A DNA stretch of 6,291 bases from a virus (IMGVR_UViG_2585427751_000007:1-6291), one strand, 5' to 3'; counted from the stretch's first letter, positions 278-6,291 are shown. The notes: a model not told the origin generated them from the letters alone. Made by a program: numbers and translations.

Positions 278-1408
278 ATGTGGGTAACAGCAAAAGAATG
301 TGTTGGTCTTCCTGATTTACCAATGATGGAACATAACATTCGCCATCGACTCACAAAAGCAGCTGCGGGAAATGCAGCCATGTTACGCAAACGTAAGGGG
401 ACAAAAGCAATCGAATTTAATATCGATTGTTTGCCTTCTGGCGCGCAACAAGTATTGCGTGAACGTTATGCCCTTCAACTGATGACGCAAAAAGCTGATG
501 AATCACCGGCTCCGGTGGTGACAAAGGCCAGACGCTCATCTGCCGTGGTTGATGCGGTGGAGGCATATCGCGGATCACCACAACTGATGCTCGAACGCCT
601 CAATGCCCTGACTGAAAACCAGCGCCAGGTGGCTGATGCACGAATCGCGATCGTCAGCGAAGTTCTGAAAGTCGCGCAACAACCTGGTTTCAGCTGTGCG
701 AAGGCTATCCGGTTTATCGTTGACAACCTGGCACGTTCGCAACTGGACGAGCGCATTGTGGCAATGGTTGAGACGGCGAACGCCAAAAAGGGAAACAGCC
801 GTGCGTTGAGTGAAATCACGCTGAAACGCTGGATTGCGGCCTTTAACAAGGCACAGAACGCCGCTGAACGCCTGCTTTTACTGGCACCGGGTAAACGCCA
901 GGAAATAAAAGCCGAAGATATTAACTGGCTGCCCGAATTTCTGGCGCAGTATCGCCAGTCAAACGGCCGACCAATGACCGAGGCTTACGAGGATTTTGTT
1001 GCTGAATGGCAGCACCGGCACGCTGATGAGCCTTATATGCTCGATATCATGCCCTCTTATGACACCATTCGCCGCGCAATGAAGAAACTGCCGGAAGTGG
1101 TGAAACAAAAAGGCCGGGTAACTGGCAGTGAATACCGTCAGCTTGAGGGATTCACGCGCCGCGACTGGTCCAGAATGCCGGTGAATTATGTCTGGATTGG
1201 TGACGGTCACGGCATGAAGCTGAAATGCGCGCACCCGGTTCACGGGCGGCCATTCGCACCGGAAGTGACCTTTGTTATCGACGGTGGCACGCGCTTTGTG
1301 GTGGGCTGGAGCCTTGATCTGGCTGAAAATGTTTTCGCTGTAGCCGGTGCCATACAGCACGGCATTCGCCATCACGGCAAACCGTTTCTGTATTACTCGG
1401 ATACCGGG
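278..1408 (+). other. MuA-like transposase portion of the chimeric ORF (enhancer/end-binding region and partial RNase-H-like DDE core; catalytically incomplete)
   Basis: Residues 1-~377 of the 533-aa ORF align by eye with the MuA N-terminal half, including two of the three DDE residues. The third acidic residue and the C-terminal domain are absent. Confidence 0.65.
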
Positions 1409-1879
1409 ATCAAAACCCGTGCGGATGCGCACGACACCCTGAAAACGCAGGTTGCCAGCCTGTCGGCAGAACTGGAAACCGCAAAAGGCACACCAACTGG
1501 CGGCACTATTGATCTGACGAAATATGTGCCCGTTGAGACGTATAACACCCTGCGTACCGAATATGCCGCGCTGTCGGCACAACACGGCAGCACCACGCTG
1601 GAGCAGTTGCTGGATAAGGCCGAGTCCGAAGGACGCATTTTCAAAAGCGAACGCGGATACATGGAAGGACTCGGACAACAGATTGGCGTCGCGGCACTTT
1701 CTGCACAGCTTGACGCCCGCCAGCCGGTTGCGGCTCTGACCACTCTTCAGACCGACACCGTAACCGTGCCGGATAAAAAGACCGCCACCGCTGTGCTGTC
1801 GGCTGAAGATATCGCCGCCGCACGTCTGTTGGGTAAAACCGAAGCCGAGTTCCTGAAAATGAAAGAGGAAATGCAATAA
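278..1879 (+). CDS. Chimeric ORF: truncated MuA-family transposase (N-terminal DNA-binding domains plus DDE core through the second Asp) fused in frame to a phage scaffold-like C-terminal domain (gpI/gpZ-like)
   Basis: The N-terminus MWVTAKECVGLPDLP...KGTKAIEFN resembles the MuA N-terminus (ELWVSPKECANLPGLP...KGGKAIEYN, from memory). The catalytic-core motifs are VWIGDGHG (Asp codon 309, nt 1202-1204) and LYYSDTG (Asp codon 375, nt 1400-1402), a spacing of 66 residues against 67 for MuA D269-D336. After that there is no MuA-like segment and no Glu in a MuA-like context. The last ~150 aa are Ala/Leu/Glu/Thr-rich and coiled-coil-like, ending ...LSAEDIAAARLLGKTEAEFLKMKEEMQ, and the stop TAA overlaps the ATG of the major head gene (TAATG at 1877-1881). 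A GGGGGA Shine-Dalgarno-like sequence lies 3 nt upstream of the start. Confidence 0.7.
   Translation: MWVTAKECVGLPDLPMMEHNIRHRLTKAAAGNAAMLRKRKGTKAIEFNIDCLPSGAQQVLRERYALQLMTQKADESPAPVVTKARRSSAVVDAVEAYRGSPQLMLERLNALTENQRQVADARIAIVSEVLKVAQQPGFSCAKAIRFIVDNLARSQLDERIVAMVETANAKKGNSRALSEITLKRWIAAFNKAQNAAERLLLLAPGKRQEIKAEDINWLPEFLAQYRQSNGRPMTEAYEDFVAEWQHRHADEPYMLDIMPSYDTIRRAMKKLPEVVKQKGRVTGSEYRQLEGFTRRDWSRMPVNYVWIGDGHGMKLKCAHPVHGRPFAPEVTFVIDGGTRFVVGWSLDLAENVFAVAGAIQHGIRHHGKPFLYYSDTGIKTRADAHDTLKTQVASLSAELETAKGTPTGGTIDLTKYVPVETYNTLRTEYAALSAQHGSTTLEQLLDKAESEGRIFKSERGYMEGLGQQIGVAALSAQLDARQPVAALTTLQTDTVTVPDKKTATAVLSAEDIAAARLLGKTEAEFLKMKEEMQ
1409..1879 (+). other. Scaffold-like C-terminal domain (Mu gpI C-terminus / gpZ-like) of the chimeric ORF
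   Basis: Low-complexity, Ala/Glu/Leu-rich sequence with predicted coiled-coil character and an acidic C-terminus, placed immediately before the major head gene with stop/start overlap. This arrangement is typical of scaffold/protease genes in Mu-like phages. Boundary is approximate (within about 20 nt). Confidence 0.55.
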
Positions 1880-2826
1880 TGCCTACCCCGATTACACCGG
1901 CGATGATCACCGCCCTGATGACGGGCTACCGTTCTGATTTTCAGGCCGGGATGTCCATGGCTCCGTCGCAGTACCAGAAAATTGCGATGACCGTGCCGTC
2001 CACCTCGAAATCCAACACCTACGGCTGGCTGGGGCAGTTCCCGCAGTTCCGTGAGTGGATCGGCTCCCGCGTCATCGAGAAGATGAAAGCCTATGGCTAC
2101 GCCATCGTGAACAAAACCTTTGAAGGCACCGTTGCCATTAGCCGCGATGACTTTGAAGACGACAATCTCGGCATCTACTCCCCGTTATTCCAGGAAATGG
2201 GTCGTGCCGCTGCGGCACAACCGGATGAACTGGTCTTTGCTGCACTGCGTGATGGTCTGAATGCGGCCTGCTATGACGGCCAGAACTTCTTTGATACCGA
2301 ACACCCTGTTTACCCCAAAGTGGATGGCTCCGGTGATGCACAGATGGTCAGCAATATGTTTGTGGCAAAAACCGGCTCTGTCGGTGCACAGGCGGATTAC
2401 AGCGGCCCGGCCTGGTATCTGCTTGACTGCTCCCGCGCGGTAAAACCGCTGATTTATCAGGATCGCCGCAAAGCCGAACTGGTTGCCCAGACAAAAGTCG
2501 ATGAAGGCCGTGCGTTTACTGATAACGAGTTTGTGTTCGGTGCTTCCGCCCGTCGCAATGTGGGCTACGGCTTCTGGCAGATGGCCTACATGATGCAGTC
2601 ACCGCTGACGCTGGATGCGCTGTGGCACGGCTGGTCAGCCATGCGTGACTTTAAGGCTGACGGTGGCCGCAAACTCGGCATCAAACCCACCCATATTGTT
2701 GTCCCCACCTCGCTGGAAAAACAGGCGGTGCAGCTGCTGGAGCGCGAGCTGTTCGCAGACGGTAACGCCACAGTCTCTAACGAGATGAAGGGCAAGCTGG
2801 AGCTGGTTGTCGCGGATTATCTGTAA
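1879..2826 (+). CDS. T: Major head (capsid) subunit, Mu gpT-like
   Basis: 315-aa ORF of the right size and position, with an N-terminus (MPTPITPAMITALMTGYRSDFQAGM...) of the kind I associate with Mu-like gpT proteins. AGAGGA Shine-Dalgarno-like sequence at 1864-1869, 9 nt upstream of the ATG. Overlaps the upstream stop. Confidence 0.85.
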   Translation: MPTPITPAMITALMTGYRSDFQAGMSMAPSQYQKIAMTVPSTSKSNTYGWLGQFPQFREWIGSRVIEKMKAYGYAIVNKTFEGTVAISRDDFEDDNLGIYSPLFQEMGRAAAAQPDELVFAALRDGLNAACYDGQNFFDTEHPVYPKVDGSGDAQMVSNMFVAKTGSVGAQADYSGPAWYLLDCSRAVKPLIYQDRRKAELVAQTKVDEGRAFTDNEFVFGASARRNVGYGFWQMAYMMQSPLTLDALWHGWSAMRDFKADGGRKLGIKPTHIVVPTSLEKQAVQLLERELFADGNATVSNEMKGKLELVVADYL

Positions 2827-2833
2827 ACGGTGA

Positions 2834-2852
2834 GCCGGGCTTACGGCCCGGC
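2834..2852 (+). terminator. GC-rich stem-loop just downstream of the major head gene (7-bp stem GCCGGGC/GCCCGGC, 5-nt loop); possible attenuator or mRNA-stabilising hairpin
   Basis: The inverted repeat at 2834-2840 and 2846-2852 is seen directly in the sequence. No U-tract follows, so it is not a canonical intrinsic terminator. Confidence 0.3.
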
Positions 2853-2869
2853 CCCTGCGGAGGGCAAAT

Positions 2870-3229
2870 ATGAATGAACATCACACTGTGGCAGCAACAG
2901 ATGATTCAGGCCTTCAGGTCAGTGGTGACAGTCCTGTCACGGTACTGGCAGAAGTGCGTTGCAGTCGTACGCATTTTCGTCGTGCGGGGTTCCTGTTCAT
3001 GCGGGGACGCCAGCAGGTTGACGTCACCCCGGAGCAGCTTGCCCGACTGGAAGCGGAGCCATGCCTCACTGTACGAATACTACAGACGCCTGGTGATGAT
3101 GCGGGAGCCGTGGCGGGTGTGGTTCATGCAGAGACCGGTGCAGATTTAGCCGAAGCCGAAACCGTACAGGATGCTCCCCGGAAAAAGACCGGCAATAACG
3201 CCAGACAGGCGAAAAAGGCGCGCGCATGA
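2870..3229 (+). CDS. Small hypothetical protein in the gp35 position of Mu-like late operons (between major head and gp36-like genes)
   Basis: 119-aa ORF with a GGAGGG Shine-Dalgarno-like sequence at 2859-2864, 5 nt upstream of the ATG. Its stop overlaps the next start (ATGA at 3226-3229), indicating translational coupling. Strongly basic C-terminal tail (RKKTGNNARQAKKARA). Function not recognised. Confidence 0.6.
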   Translation: MNEHHTVAATDDSGLQVSGDSPVTVLAEVRCSRTHFRRAGFLFMRGRQQVDVTPEQLARLEAEPCLTVRILQTPGDDAGAVAGVVHAETGADLAEAETVQDAPRKKTGNNARQAKKARA

Positions 3230-3645
3230 ATTACGCCACCGAAACCGATATGCGGGCACGTTACCGCGAGGATTTGCTCAGGCCATTACTGGCCGTGCCC
3301 CGTTCGGATGAACCGGACACGCGCAAGCTGAACCGGGCACTGACGGACGCGTCTGCCCTTATCGACAGCTATCTGTCTTCCCGTTACACGCTGCCGCTGG
3401 CGGTGGTTCCGGCGGTCCTTGTTCAGCATTGCTGCACGATTGCCTTTTATTACCTGTGCGATCAGCGGGCATCCGATCAGGCGCGTGACCGTTACCGTGA
3501 GGCGCTGGCCTGGCTGAAAGATGTCATGAACGGTAACGTGCCGGTCGGCGTGGATACAGACGGTGCGGCCCCTGAATCCGGGGATTTACCGCAGGTGCAG
3601 TCTGATGCGGCGGTGTTCGGGCGCAACCAGAAGGGCTTTATATGA
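3226..3645 (+). CDS. Mu gp36-like head-tail joining/neck protein (DUF1320 family)
   Basis: 139-aa ORF. The segment ...ALTDASALIDSYLSSRYTLPLAVVPAVLVQHCCTIAFYYLCD...YREALAWLKDV... matches the conserved pattern of the DUF1320 / Mu gp36 family as recalled. Correct size and position. ATGA overlap with the next gene. Confidence 0.8.
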   Translation: MNYATETDMRARYREDLLRPLLAVPRSDEPDTRKLNRALTDASALIDSYLSSRYTLPLAVVPAVLVQHCCTIAFYYLCDQRASDQARDRYREALAWLKDVMNGNVPVGVDTDGAAPESGDLPQVQSDAAVFGRNQKGFI

Positions 3646-4205
3646 TTACGGAAACCGAGCAGGCGTACATCGCCCGTATCCGTGAGTATTTCGGGAATGA
3701 ACTGGTGTCTGTTGACACACATCCCGGCGACTGGAGCGACAGCGTACTGCGCACCATGCTGATTAACGCCCCGGCTATCTATGTTGCCTGGCTGGGTGCC
3801 GGTGAAGGGCGTACCCGTGGGCGTCTGGTCAGTCACTGGGTGTTCTACGTCATCGGCGACATGCTCAATGGCCGTGAGGTCAGCCGTCCCGGGCTTTATC
3901 AGATTGTGGCCCGCCTGATTACCGTGCTGGACGGCTTCAGAGCAGAAAAAACCTCACCGCTTTACTTTGAAAAGGCGGTCAACGGTTACACCGAAACGCA
4001 GGCAGGCAGCGGTGCCGTGATGTACGCCCTGTATTTCTCATGCGAGGAAATGATCGACCCGCTGACGGATATCAGCTCGCTGGATGATTTCCTGCGCCAT
4101 TACGAAACCTTTACCGAACCGGAAGGCACGCCGGAATTTAAGGCACACATCCGTCTGCCTGGTGCAACTGCCGCCGGTGAAAACGCCGGACTGTCAGAGG
4201 AATAA
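3642..4205 (+). CDS. Mu gp37-like virion protein (DUF1834 family)
   Basis: 187-aa ORF of the right size and position for the gp37-like family. AAGGG Shine-Dalgarno-like sequence 6 nt upstream of the ATG. Start overlaps the upstream stop. Confidence 0.75.
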   Translation: MITETEQAYIARIREYFGNELVSVDTHPGDWSDSVLRTMLINAPAIYVAWLGAGEGRTRGRLVSHWVFYVIGDMLNGREVSRPGLYQIVARLITVLDGFRAEKTSPLYFEKAVNGYTETQAGSGAVMYALYFSCEEMIDPLTDISSLDDFLRHYETFTEPEGTPEFKAHIRLPGATAAGENAGLSEE

Positions 4206-4208
4206 CAG

Positions 4209-4487
4209 ATGACAACCATTTTTATTAAACCTGCGCCGGGATGCCTGATCCGCGATCCCGACACGATGACTCCGCTCTCTCAGGACGGGGAAGAGAAACC
4301 CTTCACTCCGTTCTGGTGCCGCCGTCTTAATGATGGCGACGTCATTGTGGTGGATAAAACGGCGGAGCCTGCCCCGGCTGCCACAACTGCTAATACCGGC
4401 GCGGCGGCAAAACCAGCGGGAGCGGTAGCAGAAAAAACTGCGGCGGTGGCTGAAAAAACCGCAGCATCAGATAAGGGGACGTCCTGA
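4209..4487 (+). CDS. Mu gp38-like small protein (DUF2635 family) with an Ala-rich repetitive C-terminal tail
   Basis: 92-aa ORF. The N-terminus MTTIFIKPAPGCLIRDPDTMTPL...FWCRRLNDGDVIVV matches the gp38-like pattern as recalled. AGAGGAA Shine-Dalgarno-like sequence at 4196-4202. Its stop overlaps the sheath start (TGATG at 4485-4489). Confidence 0.75.
   Translation: MTTIFIKPAPGCLIRDPDTMTPLSQDGEEKPFTPFWCRRLNDGDVIVVDKTAEPAPAATTANTGAAAKPAGAVAEKTAAVAEKTAASDKGTS
4422..4463 (+). repeat. Imperfect 21-bp tandem duplication (gcggtagcagaaaaaactgcg / gcggtggctgaaaaaaccgca) encoding AVAEKTA-AVAEKTA
   Basis: Direct tandem repeat seen in the sequence inside the C-terminal tail of the gp38-like ORF. Confidence 0.5.
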
Positions 4488-6058
4488 TGATTAACTTTGA
4501 TTATATCGGCGATAACAATCGCATTCCGCTGGTACAGATTGAAATCAATAATTCAATGGCCGTGACCGGCACTCCACCACAGCGTCAGGCGGTACTGTTG
4601 TTTGGTCAGGCTGCAATGAAAGACACTACCATTCAGGGGCGCGGTCAGCTTGATGTACCAGTACGTATTACCCGAGCTTCACAAGCAAGAGAACTCTGGG
4701 GGCGAGGTTCCATGATTGCACTGATGGTAGAGGAATTTATCGCCATTAACCCTGACACAGAGTTATATGCCATTGCACAGGGGGCTGGAACAGGTCAGTC
4801 CAGGGCATGCGTGATGAATATCATTGGAACAGCATTGGCAGACGGGGTGTTAAGTGTTTACATCGGCGGTCGCCGTTACCTCCTGCCCGTCAGTAAGGGG
4901 AAAAAAGGTAAAGAGCTTGTGGAAGAGCTGGCTAAGGTCATTAACGCTGACACTGATGCGCCATTCACTGCTATCGCAGCTGAAGTCAGTGGTGATAATG
5001 CTGAAGGACTTAAAGGCAGCATGGGGGTTAACGCCCGCTTTATCGGTGAATGCTCAGCTCATGATTTACGGGTGAACTATTATGACGGTGAAACTACACC
5101 GGCCGGTCTTACGCTGGAGCTCGTCGCGCCAACACAGAAGGCAACAAACCCCGATATCACCCGTAGCGTCTCAGGGATGGGGAATCGTCAGTACAACTAC
5201 ATCGTCATGCCCTATAAGGATGCGGCAAATCTCAAAATTCTGGCGGATGAACTGCTGAAACGCTGGGGACCGGTAAAAATGTCGGACGGTATGGTCTGGA
5301 TGGCGCATACCGGCACCTTCGGTACGGCAACCAGTTTTGGTGAATCCCGTAATGACTTCCTGTTTACCTGCACTTCTATTCCTAAAGCACCAGAGCCGGA
5401 TTATGTCTGGGCGGCCTCCATTTGTGCGGTCTGTGCGCCCTCCCTGTCAACGGATCCGGCCCGACCATTACAGACACTGGCGCTGCCTGCCCGTATGGCA
5501 CCTGAAGCACCGGCTCGTCTGACGCGGGAAGAGCGAAACAGCCTGCTTTATACCGGCATGTCCACGGTGACCGTTGCGGCCGCTGATGTGGTGCAGATTG
5601 AACGTCAGGTGACGATGTACCGTCAGAATGCATACGGCGAAAGCGATCCCAGCTATCTGGATGTAGAAACCATCTACACCCTGTCATATCTGCGTTATTC
5701 CCTGCGCACCTTTATCACGCAGCGTTTCCCGCGCCACAAACTGGCCGATAACGGTACTCCCGTCCGGCCCGGTCAGAATATCGTGACGCCGGAGATTATG
5801 ACGCTCCAGCTGATTGCACTGGGGGAAGAATGGGTGGAACTCGGGCTGGTCGAAAATCTGGACACCTTTAAAAAGAATCTGCTCGTGGAGCGCAACACAA
5901 AAGACCGTAACCGTCTGGATGTGATGTGTACACCGGATCTGCACGGCAGCGTGCCCTGCGTGAAATGCGCCGTGCGATTGCCCGTTCAGAACGGTTTTCT
6001 GCCACCGTGCGTGGCTGGTTCCGGGATGATGGCCGGTTATGGGATGTCAATCTGCTGA
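4487..6058 (+). CDS. L: Contractile tail sheath protein (Mu gpL-like); the C-terminal ~38 codons look like out-of-frame read-through into a neighbouring gene fragment
   Basis: 523-aa ORF of sheath size and position, sheath-like through ...NLLVERNTKDRNRLDVMCTPDL. AAGGGGA Shine-Dalgarno-like sequence at 4473-4479. The final segment HGSVPCVKCAVRLPVQNGFLPPCVAGSGMMAGYGMSIC is Cys/Pro/Gly-rich and atypical, while the -1 frame over the same DNA gives a well-formed protein sequence. Confidence 0.8.
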   Translation: MINFDYIGDNNRIPLVQIEINNSMAVTGTPPQRQAVLLFGQAAMKDTTIQGRGQLDVPVRITRASQARELWGRGSMIALMVEEFIAINPDTELYAIAQGAGTGQSRACVMNIIGTALADGVLSVYIGGRRYLLPVSKGKKGKELVEELAKVINADTDAPFTAIAAEVSGDNAEGLKGSMGVNARFIGECSAHDLRVNYYDGETTPAGLTLELVAPTQKATNPDITRSVSGMGNRQYNYIVMPYKDAANLKILADELLKRWGPVKMSDGMVWMAHTGTFGTATSFGESRNDFLFTCTSIPKAPEPDYVWAASICAVCAPSLSTDPARPLQTLALPARMAPEAPARLTREERNSLLYTGMSTVTVAAADVVQIERQVTMYRQNAYGESDPSYLDVETIYTLSYLRYSLRTFITQRFPRHKLADNGTPVRPGQNIVTPEIMTLQLIALGEEWVELGLVENLDTFKKNLLVERNTKDRNRLDVMCTPDLHGSVPCVKCAVRLPVQNGFLPPCVAGSGMMAGYGMSIC

Positions 6059-6291
6059 CCGGTGTTTCAGCCCTGCGTTTCGGTATAGAACAGACTGAAC
6101 TGCTGGTCTGTCAGGTGGAGTTTTTACTTGATGAGCATAACGGGGAAGTCACCCGGCTGGTACTGGCACCGCGTGACGGCTTTATCGTTCCGGCAGAGCC
6201 GGACAGTAAGGGCCGGGGTGGTTCCGGTGACGATGTTGATGCCTTTATTCGCCAGCAGATGAAAAAACAGGGGATCAGCTTTGATGAATGA
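5926..6291 (+). pseudogene. C-terminal fragment (~115 aa) of a baseplate hub protein of the gpD family (P2 gpD / Mu gpP-like), lacking its N-terminal ~2/3 and its own start
   Basis: The frame is open from nt 5911, with the first GTG at 5926 and an ATG at 5965. The translation ...RRAIARSERFSATVRGW...VNLLTGVSALRFGIEQTELLVCQVEFLLDEHNGEVTRLVLAP... resembles the C-terminal region of P2 gpD-like hub proteins as recalled from memory. It overlaps the sheath ORF by ~130 nt in the -1 frame and has no Shine-Dalgarno sequence. Family assignment is tentative. Confidence 0.45.

What the first reader, a model, noticed from the sequence alone, without database searches (positions are those of the whole stretch)
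5900..6291. Second junction: tail sheath gene runs out of frame into a 3' fragment of a gpD-like baseplate hub gene
Sheath-like sequence ends at ...DVMCTPDL (about nt 5941). The next 38 sheath-frame codons are Cys/Pro/Gly-rich and look like out-of-frame translation. The -1 frame, open from nt 5911, encodes a well-formed ~120-aa sequence resembling the C-terminus of P2 gpD / Mu gpP hub proteins, ending exactly at the window end. Tube, assembly chaperone, tape measure, DNA-circularisation and most of the hub gene would normally lie between sheath and hub C-terminus, implying a second multi-kb deletion. The junction sits next to a short direct repeat (GATGTGATGTG, 5921-5930) that could have mediated it. 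The window holds one more repeat in this interval that is at least as interesting as the junction itself.
Basis: partly seen in the sequence, partly recalled or inferred. Interest (0 to 1): 0.55.

Follow-up and report, generated by a model that had tools for sequence, protein, structure and literature searches.

The report
Deletion scar in dead Mu-like prophage
This is a real but ordinary 5.2-kb deletion scar in a decayed Mu-like prophage of E. coli: it joins a truncated tail-sheath gene, out of frame, to the last third of the baseplate-hub gene, and neither piece can work.

Summary
The junction is real and lies at window 5940-5941. Left of it is a Mu gpL-type sheath gene that lacks its last 15 codons. 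Right of it are the last 116 codons of a Mu gp44/gpP hub gene, in another frame.

Against an intact relative (E. coli AF39 prophage), 5,204 bp are missing: the sheath 3' end, tube, chaperone, tape measure, DNA-circularisation gene and hub codons 1-258. The breakpoints share only TG, inside an imperfect CACCGG..TG match. That pattern fits illegitimate recombination.

The "one more repeat" is at most an imperfect 18-nt tandem (6012-6046) inside native hub codons.

The same 80-nt junction occurs in at least ten other independent assemblies. All of those are a prophage remnant in malX, whereas the window's copy sits beside nlpE on a different left-arm backbone. SNP patterns require a homologous crossover between 5017 and 5941. 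So the scar was inherited and moved by recombination, not made in this strain.

This is ordinary prophage decay and of low interest.

The parts
4487..5941 (+). Sheath-derived part of the pseudogene: codons 1-485 of a 500-codon Mu gpL/gp39-type tail sheath gene
   Evidence: Pfam PF04984 (6.3e-34) and PF17482 matched only over profile positions 1-89 of 104. Differs from the intact 500-aa AF39 gene at only two silent sites, 4627 and 5017. The intact AF39 protein aligns end to end with the Mu sheath, PDB 9khy (E 5.5e-149).
5940..5941 (.). Deletion junction J2: the 2-nt microhomology TG shared by both parental breakpoints
   Evidence: The two alignments of the window to L001 overlap by exactly these two bases. 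The 80-mer across it is identical in L003-L013.
5931..5936 (.). CACCGG, also present 2 nt upstream of the right-hand parental breakpoint (imperfect flanking microhomology CACCGG(ATC)TG versus CACCGGTG)
   Evidence: Parental sequences printed.
5942..6058 (+). Out-of-frame tail of the sheath ORF: 38 nonsense codons read from hub-gene DNA, then stop TGA at 6056-6058
   Evidence: ORF 4487-6058. Tail translated. Frame arithmetic.
5941..6291 (+). 3' fragment of the Mu gp44/gpP-type baseplate hub gene: codons 259-374 plus stop. It has no start codon of its own; gene callers assign a 94-aa GTG ORF at 6007-6291.
   Evidence: 100% identical to L001 25746-26096. Pfam PF21929 GpP_4th. The intact protein matches Mu gp44, PDB 1wru (E 1.5e-110). 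The 94-aa call appears in L013.
5918..5928 (.). It is native sheath sequence and not involved in the junction.
   Evidence: Present in the intact gene (L001 left parent). Absent near the right breakpoint. Chance frequency.
6012..6046 (+). Imperfect 18-nt tandem (1.9 copies, 82% match) inside hub codons GWFRDD|GRLWDV. It is native and unrelated to the deletion.
   Evidence: TRF. Identical in intact AF39. The homologous peptides in AST198 (HWFRENGQLWDI) and Mu (GWTRKDGQLWMPN) show no repeat.

Best explanation
Window 5900-6291 spans a deletion scar (J2) in a dead Mu-like (Sp18/AF39-type) prophage of E. coli 4-203-08_S3_C1.

Origin of the scar. One illegitimate, microhomology-guided recombination event removed 5,204 bp. 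The shared bases are TG, within CACCGG..TG. The mechanism is inferred to be RecA-independent slippage or end joining. The deletion runs from codon 486 of the sheath gene to codon 258 of the hub gene.

Consequences:
- The sheath ORF loses its C-arm (VNQFRFMAAQIRFIL) and reads 38 nonsense codons instead. In Mu this arm forms the inter-ring 'handshake' beta-sheet and initiates sheath assembly on the baseplate.
- The hub gene survives only as a startless C-terminal domain.
- Tube, chaperone, tape measure and DNA-circularisation genes are gone, so no tail can be built.

The scar has no function; it is a pseudogene boundary.

History. The scar was not made in this strain. The same junction, together with a third junction (J3) 34 nt past the hub stop, is carried by a prophage remnant inserted in malX in many other E. 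coli. Homologous recombination within the sheath gene then placed this scarred right arm on a different Mu-like left arm, which in the window's strain sits next to nlpE. The crossover lies between 5017 and 5941, most simply within 5018-5412.

Shown: the breakpoints, the content of the deletion, the microhomology, the recurrence of the junction, and the incompatible SNP/junction pattern.
Inferred: the molecular mechanism of the deletion, loss of function, and the route of the recombination.
For: - Breakpoints and missing genes: with intact relatives also.
- Domain content. PDB matches to Mu gp39 and gp44.
- Role of the sheath C-arm in Mu: PMC11915804.
- The junction 80-mer is identical in 11 loci from NCBI isolate assemblies and ENA metagenome scaffolds. 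Ten of these are in malX with both chromosomal flanks assembled.
- The 523-aa chimeric protein is on 27 contigs, the longest 4.84 Mb.
- Source strain and the nlpE context.
- Four-gamete pattern:
  - window: J2 present, with T/C at 4627/5017
  - malX remnants: J2 present, with C/G
  - intact AF39 and JKHS016: J2 absent, with C/G
  - intact L018, L021, L023: J2 absent, with T/C
- L023 differs from the window at 1 site over 1402-5412. The malX copies differ at 0 sites over 5018-6291.
- No resemblance to the Gin crossover site at J2.
Against: - The mechanism of the deletion cannot be proven from a single product. Two bases of perfect microhomology is minimal.
- The crossover inference rests on four SNP sites plus the junction.
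- Reads of the source strain could not be examined. Physical linkage of J2 to the nlpE-side arm therefore rests on contig continuity and on the same gene order in two sister assemblies.
- None of 5,426 complete RefSeq E. coli genomes carries J2 or J3. All support therefore comes from draft and metagenome assemblies, plus one 4.84-Mb contig that I did not inspect.
Confidence: 0.85

Rival explanations
1. Chimeric contig. J2 is real DNA but, in this strain, belongs to a co-resident malX-type remnant. The assembler crossed from an nlpE-side prophage into that copy within the 395-nt stretch (5018-5412) where the two are identical.
For: The switch from an L023-like to a malX-like haplotype falls in a stretch with no differences between the two types, which is exactly where an assembler could cross. 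The contig ends 71 nt after the window, inside a repeat. E. coli genomes carry up to 8 matches to this sheath-hub query, so several such prophages can share one genome.
Against: With two copies, contig breaks would be expected at 4487 (where the copies become about 15% divergent) and at 5941. There are none. The contig end is explained by the 45-bp gix inverted repeat of the element's own invertible segment. The same gene order was assembled in two sister isolates (KEL13902.1 and KEL19885.1). J1 and J2 have only 2 nt of overlap each and cannot themselves be graph artefacts.
Confidence: 0.12
2. The deletion was made by a phage recombinase: either Gin invertase acting on pseudo-gix sites, or MuA-mediated intramolecular transposition.
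For: The neighbouring junction J3 falls immediately next to the central TC of the gixL site, so Gin-related events are conceivable in this element.
Against: With the crossover dinucleotide set at TG, the J2 parental sites match the gix half-site at only 4+4 and 2+2 of 12+12 positions, which is background level. MuA-made deletions have one endpoint at a Mu end, whereas both J2 endpoints are internal.
Confidence: 0.02
3. The arrangement is functional: a sheath variant with a new Cys-rich C-terminus and/or an independent small hub-domain protein, for example part of a domesticated tailocin.
For: The 523-aa protein sequence is conserved exactly across many assemblies. Gene callers annotate a 94-aa ORF with GpP_4th.
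Against: - The conservation reflects recent shared descent: nucleotide identity is near 100%, with two silent differences.
- The tail is plain out-of-frame hub sequence.
- The C-arm needed for polymerisation is lost.
- Tube, tape measure, spike and wedge genes are absent in every carrier.
- No promoter-like site lies in 5600-6291 and the eye finds no Shine-Dalgarno sequence before GTG 6007.
Confidence: 0.01

Closest known systems
Phage Mu tail sheath gpL/gp39 (PDB 9khy, 9ki1, 9lj8; Pfam PF04984 and PF17482)
   Same: The intact relative of the window's gene aligns end to end with Mu gp39 (E 5.5e-149). The window retains the N-arm and domains I-III.
   Different: The last 15 residues (the C-arm) are replaced by 38 out-of-frame residues, and no tube gene follows. 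It is a pseudogene.
Phage Mu baseplate hub gp44/gpP (PDB 1wru; Pfam PF21683, PF22255, PF21929). The homology of P2 gpD to this protein is from my own knowledge.
   Same: Window 5941-6291 is the C-terminal domain (PF21929) and is 100% identical to an intact 374-aa homologue.
   Different: The tube-like N-terminal domains (residues 1-258) and the start codon are missing.
Sp18/AF39-type Mu-like prophages of E. coli (Sp18 of O157 Sakai, PMC2669165)
   Same: Same gene order (repressor, ner, A, B ... I, T, gp36, gp37, DUF2635, sheath, tube ... hub ... invertible fibre segment, gin, com/mom) and 97-100% nucleotide identity.
   Different: The window's copy has lost about 16.9 kb (J1), 5.2 kb (J2) and about 3.2 kb (J3).
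Cryptic or 'grounded' defective prophages, and recombination among co-resident prophages (PMC6379469, PMC2669165)
   Same: Stepwise internal deletions, gene fusions and pseudogenes. Exchange of segments between related prophages by homologous recombination.
   Different: Nothing of principle differs. This is one more documented instance, with the detail that one scar is shared by remnants at two chromosomal sites.
Laboratory mini-Mu elements (PMC3145075)
   Same: Internally deleted Mu derivatives. In principle they could be moved by a helper if the ends, and transposase supplied in trans, are present.
   Different: In the window the transposase gene is destroyed by J1. The right end could not be seen, and no evidence of mobilisation was obtained.

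Membership tests
Contractile tail sheath, Mu gpL/gp39 type | Subtilisin-like sheath domain (PF04984) | tested here: met
   E 6.3e-34, profile positions 1-168 of 168
Contractile tail sheath, Mu gpL/gp39 type | Complete C-terminal domain including the C-arm strand used in the inter-subunit handshake | tested here: not met
   PF17482 is matched only over positions 1-89 of 104. The last 15 residues, conserved between AF39 and Mu (VNQFRFMAAQIRFIL / INQFRIFAAQVQFIL), are absent. Their role is described in PMC11915804.
Contractile tail sheath, Mu gpL/gp39 type | Followed by the tube gene, as part of a tail module | tested here: not met
   The tube, chaperone and tape measure genes are present in L001 and L016-L023 but absent from the window and from L003-L013.
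Baseplate hub, Mu gp44/gpP type | C-terminal (fourth) domain, PF21929 | tested here: met
   E 1.3e-10. 100% nucleotide identity to the intact gene.
Baseplate hub, Mu gp44/gpP type | Tube-like N-terminal domains (PF21683, PF22255) and its own start codon | tested here: not met
   Residues 1-258 are deleted. Intact homologues carry these domains.
Deletion by illegitimate (microhomology) recombination | The two flanks are collinear but separated in intact relatives, and no foreign DNA lies at the joint | tested here: met
   L001 20542 joins 25747 with 5,204 bp missing and no inserted bases.
Deletion by illegitimate (microhomology) recombination | Short shared sequence at the breakpoints | tested here: met
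   Perfect TG, with imperfect CACCGG(ATC)TG versus CACCGGTG. By my own estimate, sharing a 6-mer within 12 nt of both ends has about a 1% chance.
Deletion by illegitimate (microhomology) recombination | Independence from RecA and from site-specific recombinases | not testable with these tools
   Only the absence of gix-like half-sites could be shown.
Gin/gix site-specific deletion | Both parental sites resemble the 12-2-12 gix site and share the central dinucleotide | tested here: not met
   At J2, half-site matches are 4+4 and 2+2 of 12+12. The native gixL scores 7+12.
Mobilisable mini-Mu-like element | Both Mu ends present, with transposase intact or supplied in trans | tested here: inconclusive
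   A left end is present (L013 about 8609, TGTAACCAGG...). Transposase is destroyed by J1 in the window but is an intact 694 aa in the malX copies. The right end of the window's copy lies beyond the contig end.

The most novel reading that the evidence does not exclude
The J2+J3-deleted element is not merely a fossil. It would have persisted for a time as a helper-dependent defective transposable phage, a natural 'mini-Mu'. It would have formed a hybrid with a second Mu-like phage by recombination in the sheath gene, been packaged with the helper's virion proteins, and transposed into a new site (nlpE flank) in a new host. That route would explain how one scar sits on two backbones at two loci.
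Probability: 0.12. Interest if true: 0.4.

Novelty: already known. Interest (0 to 1): 0.13.

Why it matters
It matters little beyond annotation.

- The 523-aa 'phage tail sheath subtilisin-like domain-containing protein' entries (UniRef lists n=17 across Enterobacterales) and the 94-aa 'hypothetical protein' are two halves of one deletion scar. They should be flagged as pseudogene products.
- The case illustrates stepwise prophage erosion: three microhomology or near-gix deletions in one element.
- It also shows a deletion allele being carried onto another prophage backbone by homologous recombination. This could serve as a lineage marker for the malX remnant.
- It opens no new mechanism or system.

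Tried and rejected
- **Exact-pattern scans for the junction.** Scans of GTDB species representatives (33-mer) and JGI metagenome contigs (22-mer) found nothing. Those collections simply do not hold a carrier. The exact-protein look-up did find carriers.
- **Megablast against 5,426 complete E. coli genomes.** No genome has J2 or J3 in one piece. The phage collection has only the sheath part, at 79% identity or less.
- **GATGT tandem as mediator.** Rejected.
- **Gin pseudo-site at J2.** Rejected.
- **A common 'CCGG' motif at all three junctions.** Considered after and dropped. The J1 perfect overlap is only TA and the motifs sit at different offsets from the joints.
- **Other repeats touching the interval**.
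  - GGCTGGTTCCGG at 6013 and 6216 (11 of 12 matching).
  - A 16-nt inverted pair at 3987-4002 and 6072-6087 (15 of 16). My estimate is about 0.2 such pairs expected per window.
  - A 14-nt direct pair at 5605 and 6223.
  - All are short, lie in coding sequence and are present in intact relatives. I treat them as chance.
- **Rfam.** No hit.
- **Promoter and terminator scan.** No promoter-like site, and one terminator-like hairpin (5982-5994) at chance expectation.
- **Mosaic switch at the sheath start.** I first read the sharp rise in identity at about 4473-4487 between the window and the malX copies as the recombination point. I rejected this because intact phages already combine the window's DUF2635 allele with this sheath allele (L018). 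The SNP pattern inside the sheath is the better evidence.

Full report
**What is in the window.** The 6,291-nt window is L013:9724-16014. That is the last 6.3 kb but 71 nt of the 282-kb contig JOQJ01000001.1 of assembly GCA_000714025.1. The source names the strain as E. coli 4-203-08_S3_C1. The window sits immediately right of dnaE-accA-ldcC-...-nlpE and a cI-type repressor gene.

The ORFs and their Pfam hits give this order:
- a Ner-like gene
- a 533-aa in-frame fusion of a MuA N-terminus to the C-terminus of the Mu I protease/scaffold
- major head protein T
- FluMu_N, gp36, gp37 and DUF2635 genes
- a 523-aa sheath ORF
- a hub fragment

It is a Mu-like prophage with large internal losses.

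**Checking the observation.** The intact Mu-like prophage of E. coli AF39 (NZ_OZ547136.1, loci L001 and L002) aligns as follows:
- window 1402-5941 = L001 16000-20542 (97.2%)
- window 5940-6291 = L001 25745-26096 (100%)

In AF39 coordinates the missing stretch is 20543-25746, or 5,204 bp. It contains:
- the last 15 sheath codons (VNQFRFMAAQIRFIL)
- the tube gene
- the Gp41-type assembly chaperone
- the tape-measure gene
- the DNA-circularisation gene
- hub codons 1-258

Position 5941 is the third base of a sheath codon but the first base of a hub codon. The sheath frame therefore runs through 38 nonsense codons to a stop at 6056-6058. The hub frame is open from 5911 and ends with the native stop at the window end.

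Domain and structure matches agree:
- Pfam gives PF04984 plus a C-terminally cut PF17482 (profile positions 1-89 of 104) for the sheath, and PF21929 GpP_4th for the fragment.
- The intact AF39 proteins match the solved Mu sheath (9khy, E 5.5e-149, end to end) and the Mu hub gp44 (1wru, E 1.5e-110).

**How the junction was made.** The parental sequences are ...GTACACCGGATCTG|GTTAACC... on the left and ...CATCACCGGTG|CACGGCAG... on the right. The product is ...GTACACCGGATCTGCACGGCAG.... The perfect overlap is TG. CACCGG lies just upstream on both sides, offset by 3 nt. No extra bases are inserted. This is the signature of illegitimate recombination at microhomology; the mechanism itself is inferred.

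It is part of the intact sheath gene and has no counterpart at the right breakpoint. Repeats of this type are as frequent as in shuffled sequence: 2 in the window against 1.8 expected.

I also tested whether the phage's own Gin invertase could have made the deletion. With TG as the crossover dinucleotide, the parental sites match the gix half-site at 4+4 and 2+2 of 12+12 positions. That is background level; the native gixL scores 7+12. MuA-type deletions would have one endpoint at a Mu end, and J2 does not.

**The 'one more repeat'.** Repeat searches of the interval and of the whole window give one candidate of any weight. It is an 18-nt unit in 1.9 copies at 6012-6046 (TGGCTGGTTCCGGGATGA / TGGCCGGTTATGGGATG, 82% match, TRF score 49). 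Only 0.7% of dinucleotide shuffles of the interval, and 1% of whole-window shuffles, reach that score, so it is not pure noise. However:
- It lies in frame in hub codons GWFRDD|GRLWDV.
- It is identical in the intact AF39 gene.
- The homologous peptides of AST198 (HWFRENGQLWDI) and Mu (GWTRKDGQLWMPN) are not repeats.

It has nothing to do with the deletion, and I see no reason to rank it with the junction. Rfam finds nothing in the window. The promoter and terminator scan of 5600-6291 is at chance level.

**Consequences for function.** In Mu, the sheath C-arm pairs with the N-arm of a neighbour and with a hairpin of the next ring in a four-stranded 'handshake'. It also starts sheath assembly on wedge protein gp46 (PMC11915804). 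The window's protein lacks that arm, and the tube, tape measure, spike and wedge genes are absent. The hub fragment has no start codon and no tube-like domain. I conclude, by inference, that both are pseudogene pieces.

**The scar is an inherited allele.** The exact 523-aa chimeric protein is listed in 58 blocks of the assembly collection and on 27 contigs, the longest 4.84 Mb. NCBI and UniRef name it a sheath protein.

Ten further loci (L003-L012) come from six NCBI isolate assemblies and four ENA metagenome scaffolds. All carry the identical 80-mer across J2. All ten are one prophage remnant inserted in malX, between malI and malY, with both chromosomal flanks assembled. That remnant has an intact 694-aa transposase and different upstream deletions.

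The malX remnant and the window's contig also share a third junction, J3. It lies 34 nt after the hub stop and joins to the left arm of the gixL site of the invertible fibre segment, removing about 3.2 kb. L013 stops inside the 45-bp gix inverted repeat, which explains the contig end.

By contrast, junction J1 (window about 1402-1407) removes about 16.9 kb and creates the MuA::I fusion. It is known only from two sister assemblies (KEL13902.1 and KEL19885.1).

**One scar on two backbones.** The window and the malX copies compare as follows:

| Window region | Comparison with malX copies |
|---|---|
| 1-457 | unalignable |
| 458-1407 | 3% different |
| 4004-4472 | about 15% different |
| 4487-6291 | 2 silent sites differ (4627, 5017) |

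At those two sites the window (T, C) agrees with the intact prophages L018, L021 and L023. The malX remnants agree with intact AF39 and JKHS016 (C, G). At 5413 and 5514 the window (G, C) agrees with malX and AF39, against L018, L021 and L023 (T, A). L023 carries 25 further differences between 5575 and 5845 that the window lacks. L023 differs from the window at one site over 1402-5412.

All four combinations of J2 presence or absence with the 4627/5017 allele therefore exist. If J2 arose once, a homologous crossover between 5017 and 5941 is required. Given two shared junctions with 2-nt and 5-8-nt overlaps, a single origin is by far the likeliest reading. The crossover most simply lies in 5018-5412.

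The window is thus an L023/L018-like left arm joined to a malX-type right arm that already carried J2 and J3. Recombination among co-resident or incoming related prophages is well documented in E. coli (PMC2669165).

**Caveat.** The same pattern would arise if the strain held two copies and the assembler crossed between them in the 395-nt identical stretch. Three points argue against this:
- The contig does not break at 4487 or 5941.
- The contig end is explained by the element's own inverted repeat.
- The structure recurs in the sister assembly.

I could not inspect reads, and I give this rival about 12%. It concerns only the linkage in this strain, not the reality of the junction.

**Comparison with what is known, and verdict.** The parts belong to well-known families: Mu gp39-type sheath, Mu gp44-type hub, and Sp18/AF39-type Mu-like prophages. 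Each fails the 'complete gene' criteria. The process is ordinary prophage erosion, namely internal deletion at microhomology followed by recombinational reshuffling.

The proposed mediating repeat and the extra 'interesting' repeat are not supported. Novelty: already known. Interest: low (0.13).

The most novel reading still open is that the deleted element spread as a helper-dependent natural mini-Mu. I rate that at about 12%, and it would be of moderate interest if true.

Noticed in passing
window 1402-1407 (ORF 278-1879): First junction, J1. An in-frame fusion joins a MuA transposase N-terminus (HTH_Tnp_Mu_1) to the C-terminus of the Mu I protease/scaffold (Mu-like_Pro, profile 198-330), giving a 533-aa ORF. 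About 16.9 kb is missing relative to AF39. The perfect microhomology is only TA, within TA[A/C]CGG. It is known only from two sister assemblies of strain 4-203-08 (WP_050496164.1).
   Followed up: partly
L013 16041-16050 (27-36 nt beyond the window end); L004 11832-11841: Third junction, J3, shared with the malX remnants. The sequence 34 nt after the hub stop joins the left arm of gixL, with the overlap (CGGTAACG versus CGATAACG) ending exactly at the central TC crossover dinucleotide of the gix site. About 3.2 kb is lost: most of the spike gene, the gp46, gp47 and gp48 genes, and the constant part of the fibre gene. The left parental site scores 7+3 of 12+12 as a gix site, or 7+6 when shifted by one base, which is in the top 0.3% of positions. 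It could be an aberrant Gin event or microhomology; this is unresolved.
   Followed up: partly
L003-L012 (for example L004 5283-18302): A heavily deleted Mu-like remnant is inserted in malX in many E. coli isolates and gut metagenome scaffolds. It has a Mu c-type repressor, an intact 694-aa transposase, a truncated B gene, the gin invertase, a DUF6645/SASA gene and com-mom. A GGTCT/GTCTG target duplication appears to flank it. Variants exist: L003 has lost the chromosomal uidA-malX flank, L010 has a further deletion from the scar to gin, and the invertible segment is found in both orientations.
   Followed up: partly
window 4473-4487 versus 4004-4472: There is a sharp module boundary at the sheath start. 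The DUF2635/gp37-end module exists in two alleles about 15% apart, which are found in both combinations with the same sheath allele among intact prophages (L018 versus AF39). The window's 92-aa DUF2635 protein is listed in 3,288 blocks of the collection.
   Followed up: partly
L014 (E. coli JKHS016, NZ_CP147059.1) and L015 19223-20440 (E. coli AST198): Other members of this prophage family carry independent rearrangements. JKHS016 has a scrambled copy, with the tape-measure gene split and segments inverted. AST198 has its own protease-to-gp37 deletion and a hub C-terminus only 74% identical to the window's.
   Followed up: no
L001 14582-14661; L015 21132-21211 (not in the window): RefSeq annotates an 80-nt 'tRNA-OTHER' on the opposite strand, between the minor head protein and virion morphogenesis genes of intact prophages of this family. 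The region lies inside the J1 deletion, so it is absent from the window.
   Followed up: no
window 3987-4002 and 6072-6087: A 16-nt inverted pair (15 of 16 complementary) lies 2 kb apart, with one arm in the gp37 gene and the other in the hub fragment. A similar pair lies at 2061-2076 and 3095-3110. My estimate is about 0.2 such pairs expected per window, so this is probably chance.
   Followed up: no
L013 8609-8700 versus L004 5204-5290: The left ends of the nlpE and malX elements share about 90 nt (TGTAACCAGGTRAATCATTTGATACCGACAAGG...) and then diverge into different repressor types: a cI-like 203-aa protein in the nlpE element and a Mu c-like 168-aa protein in the malX element.
   Followed up: no
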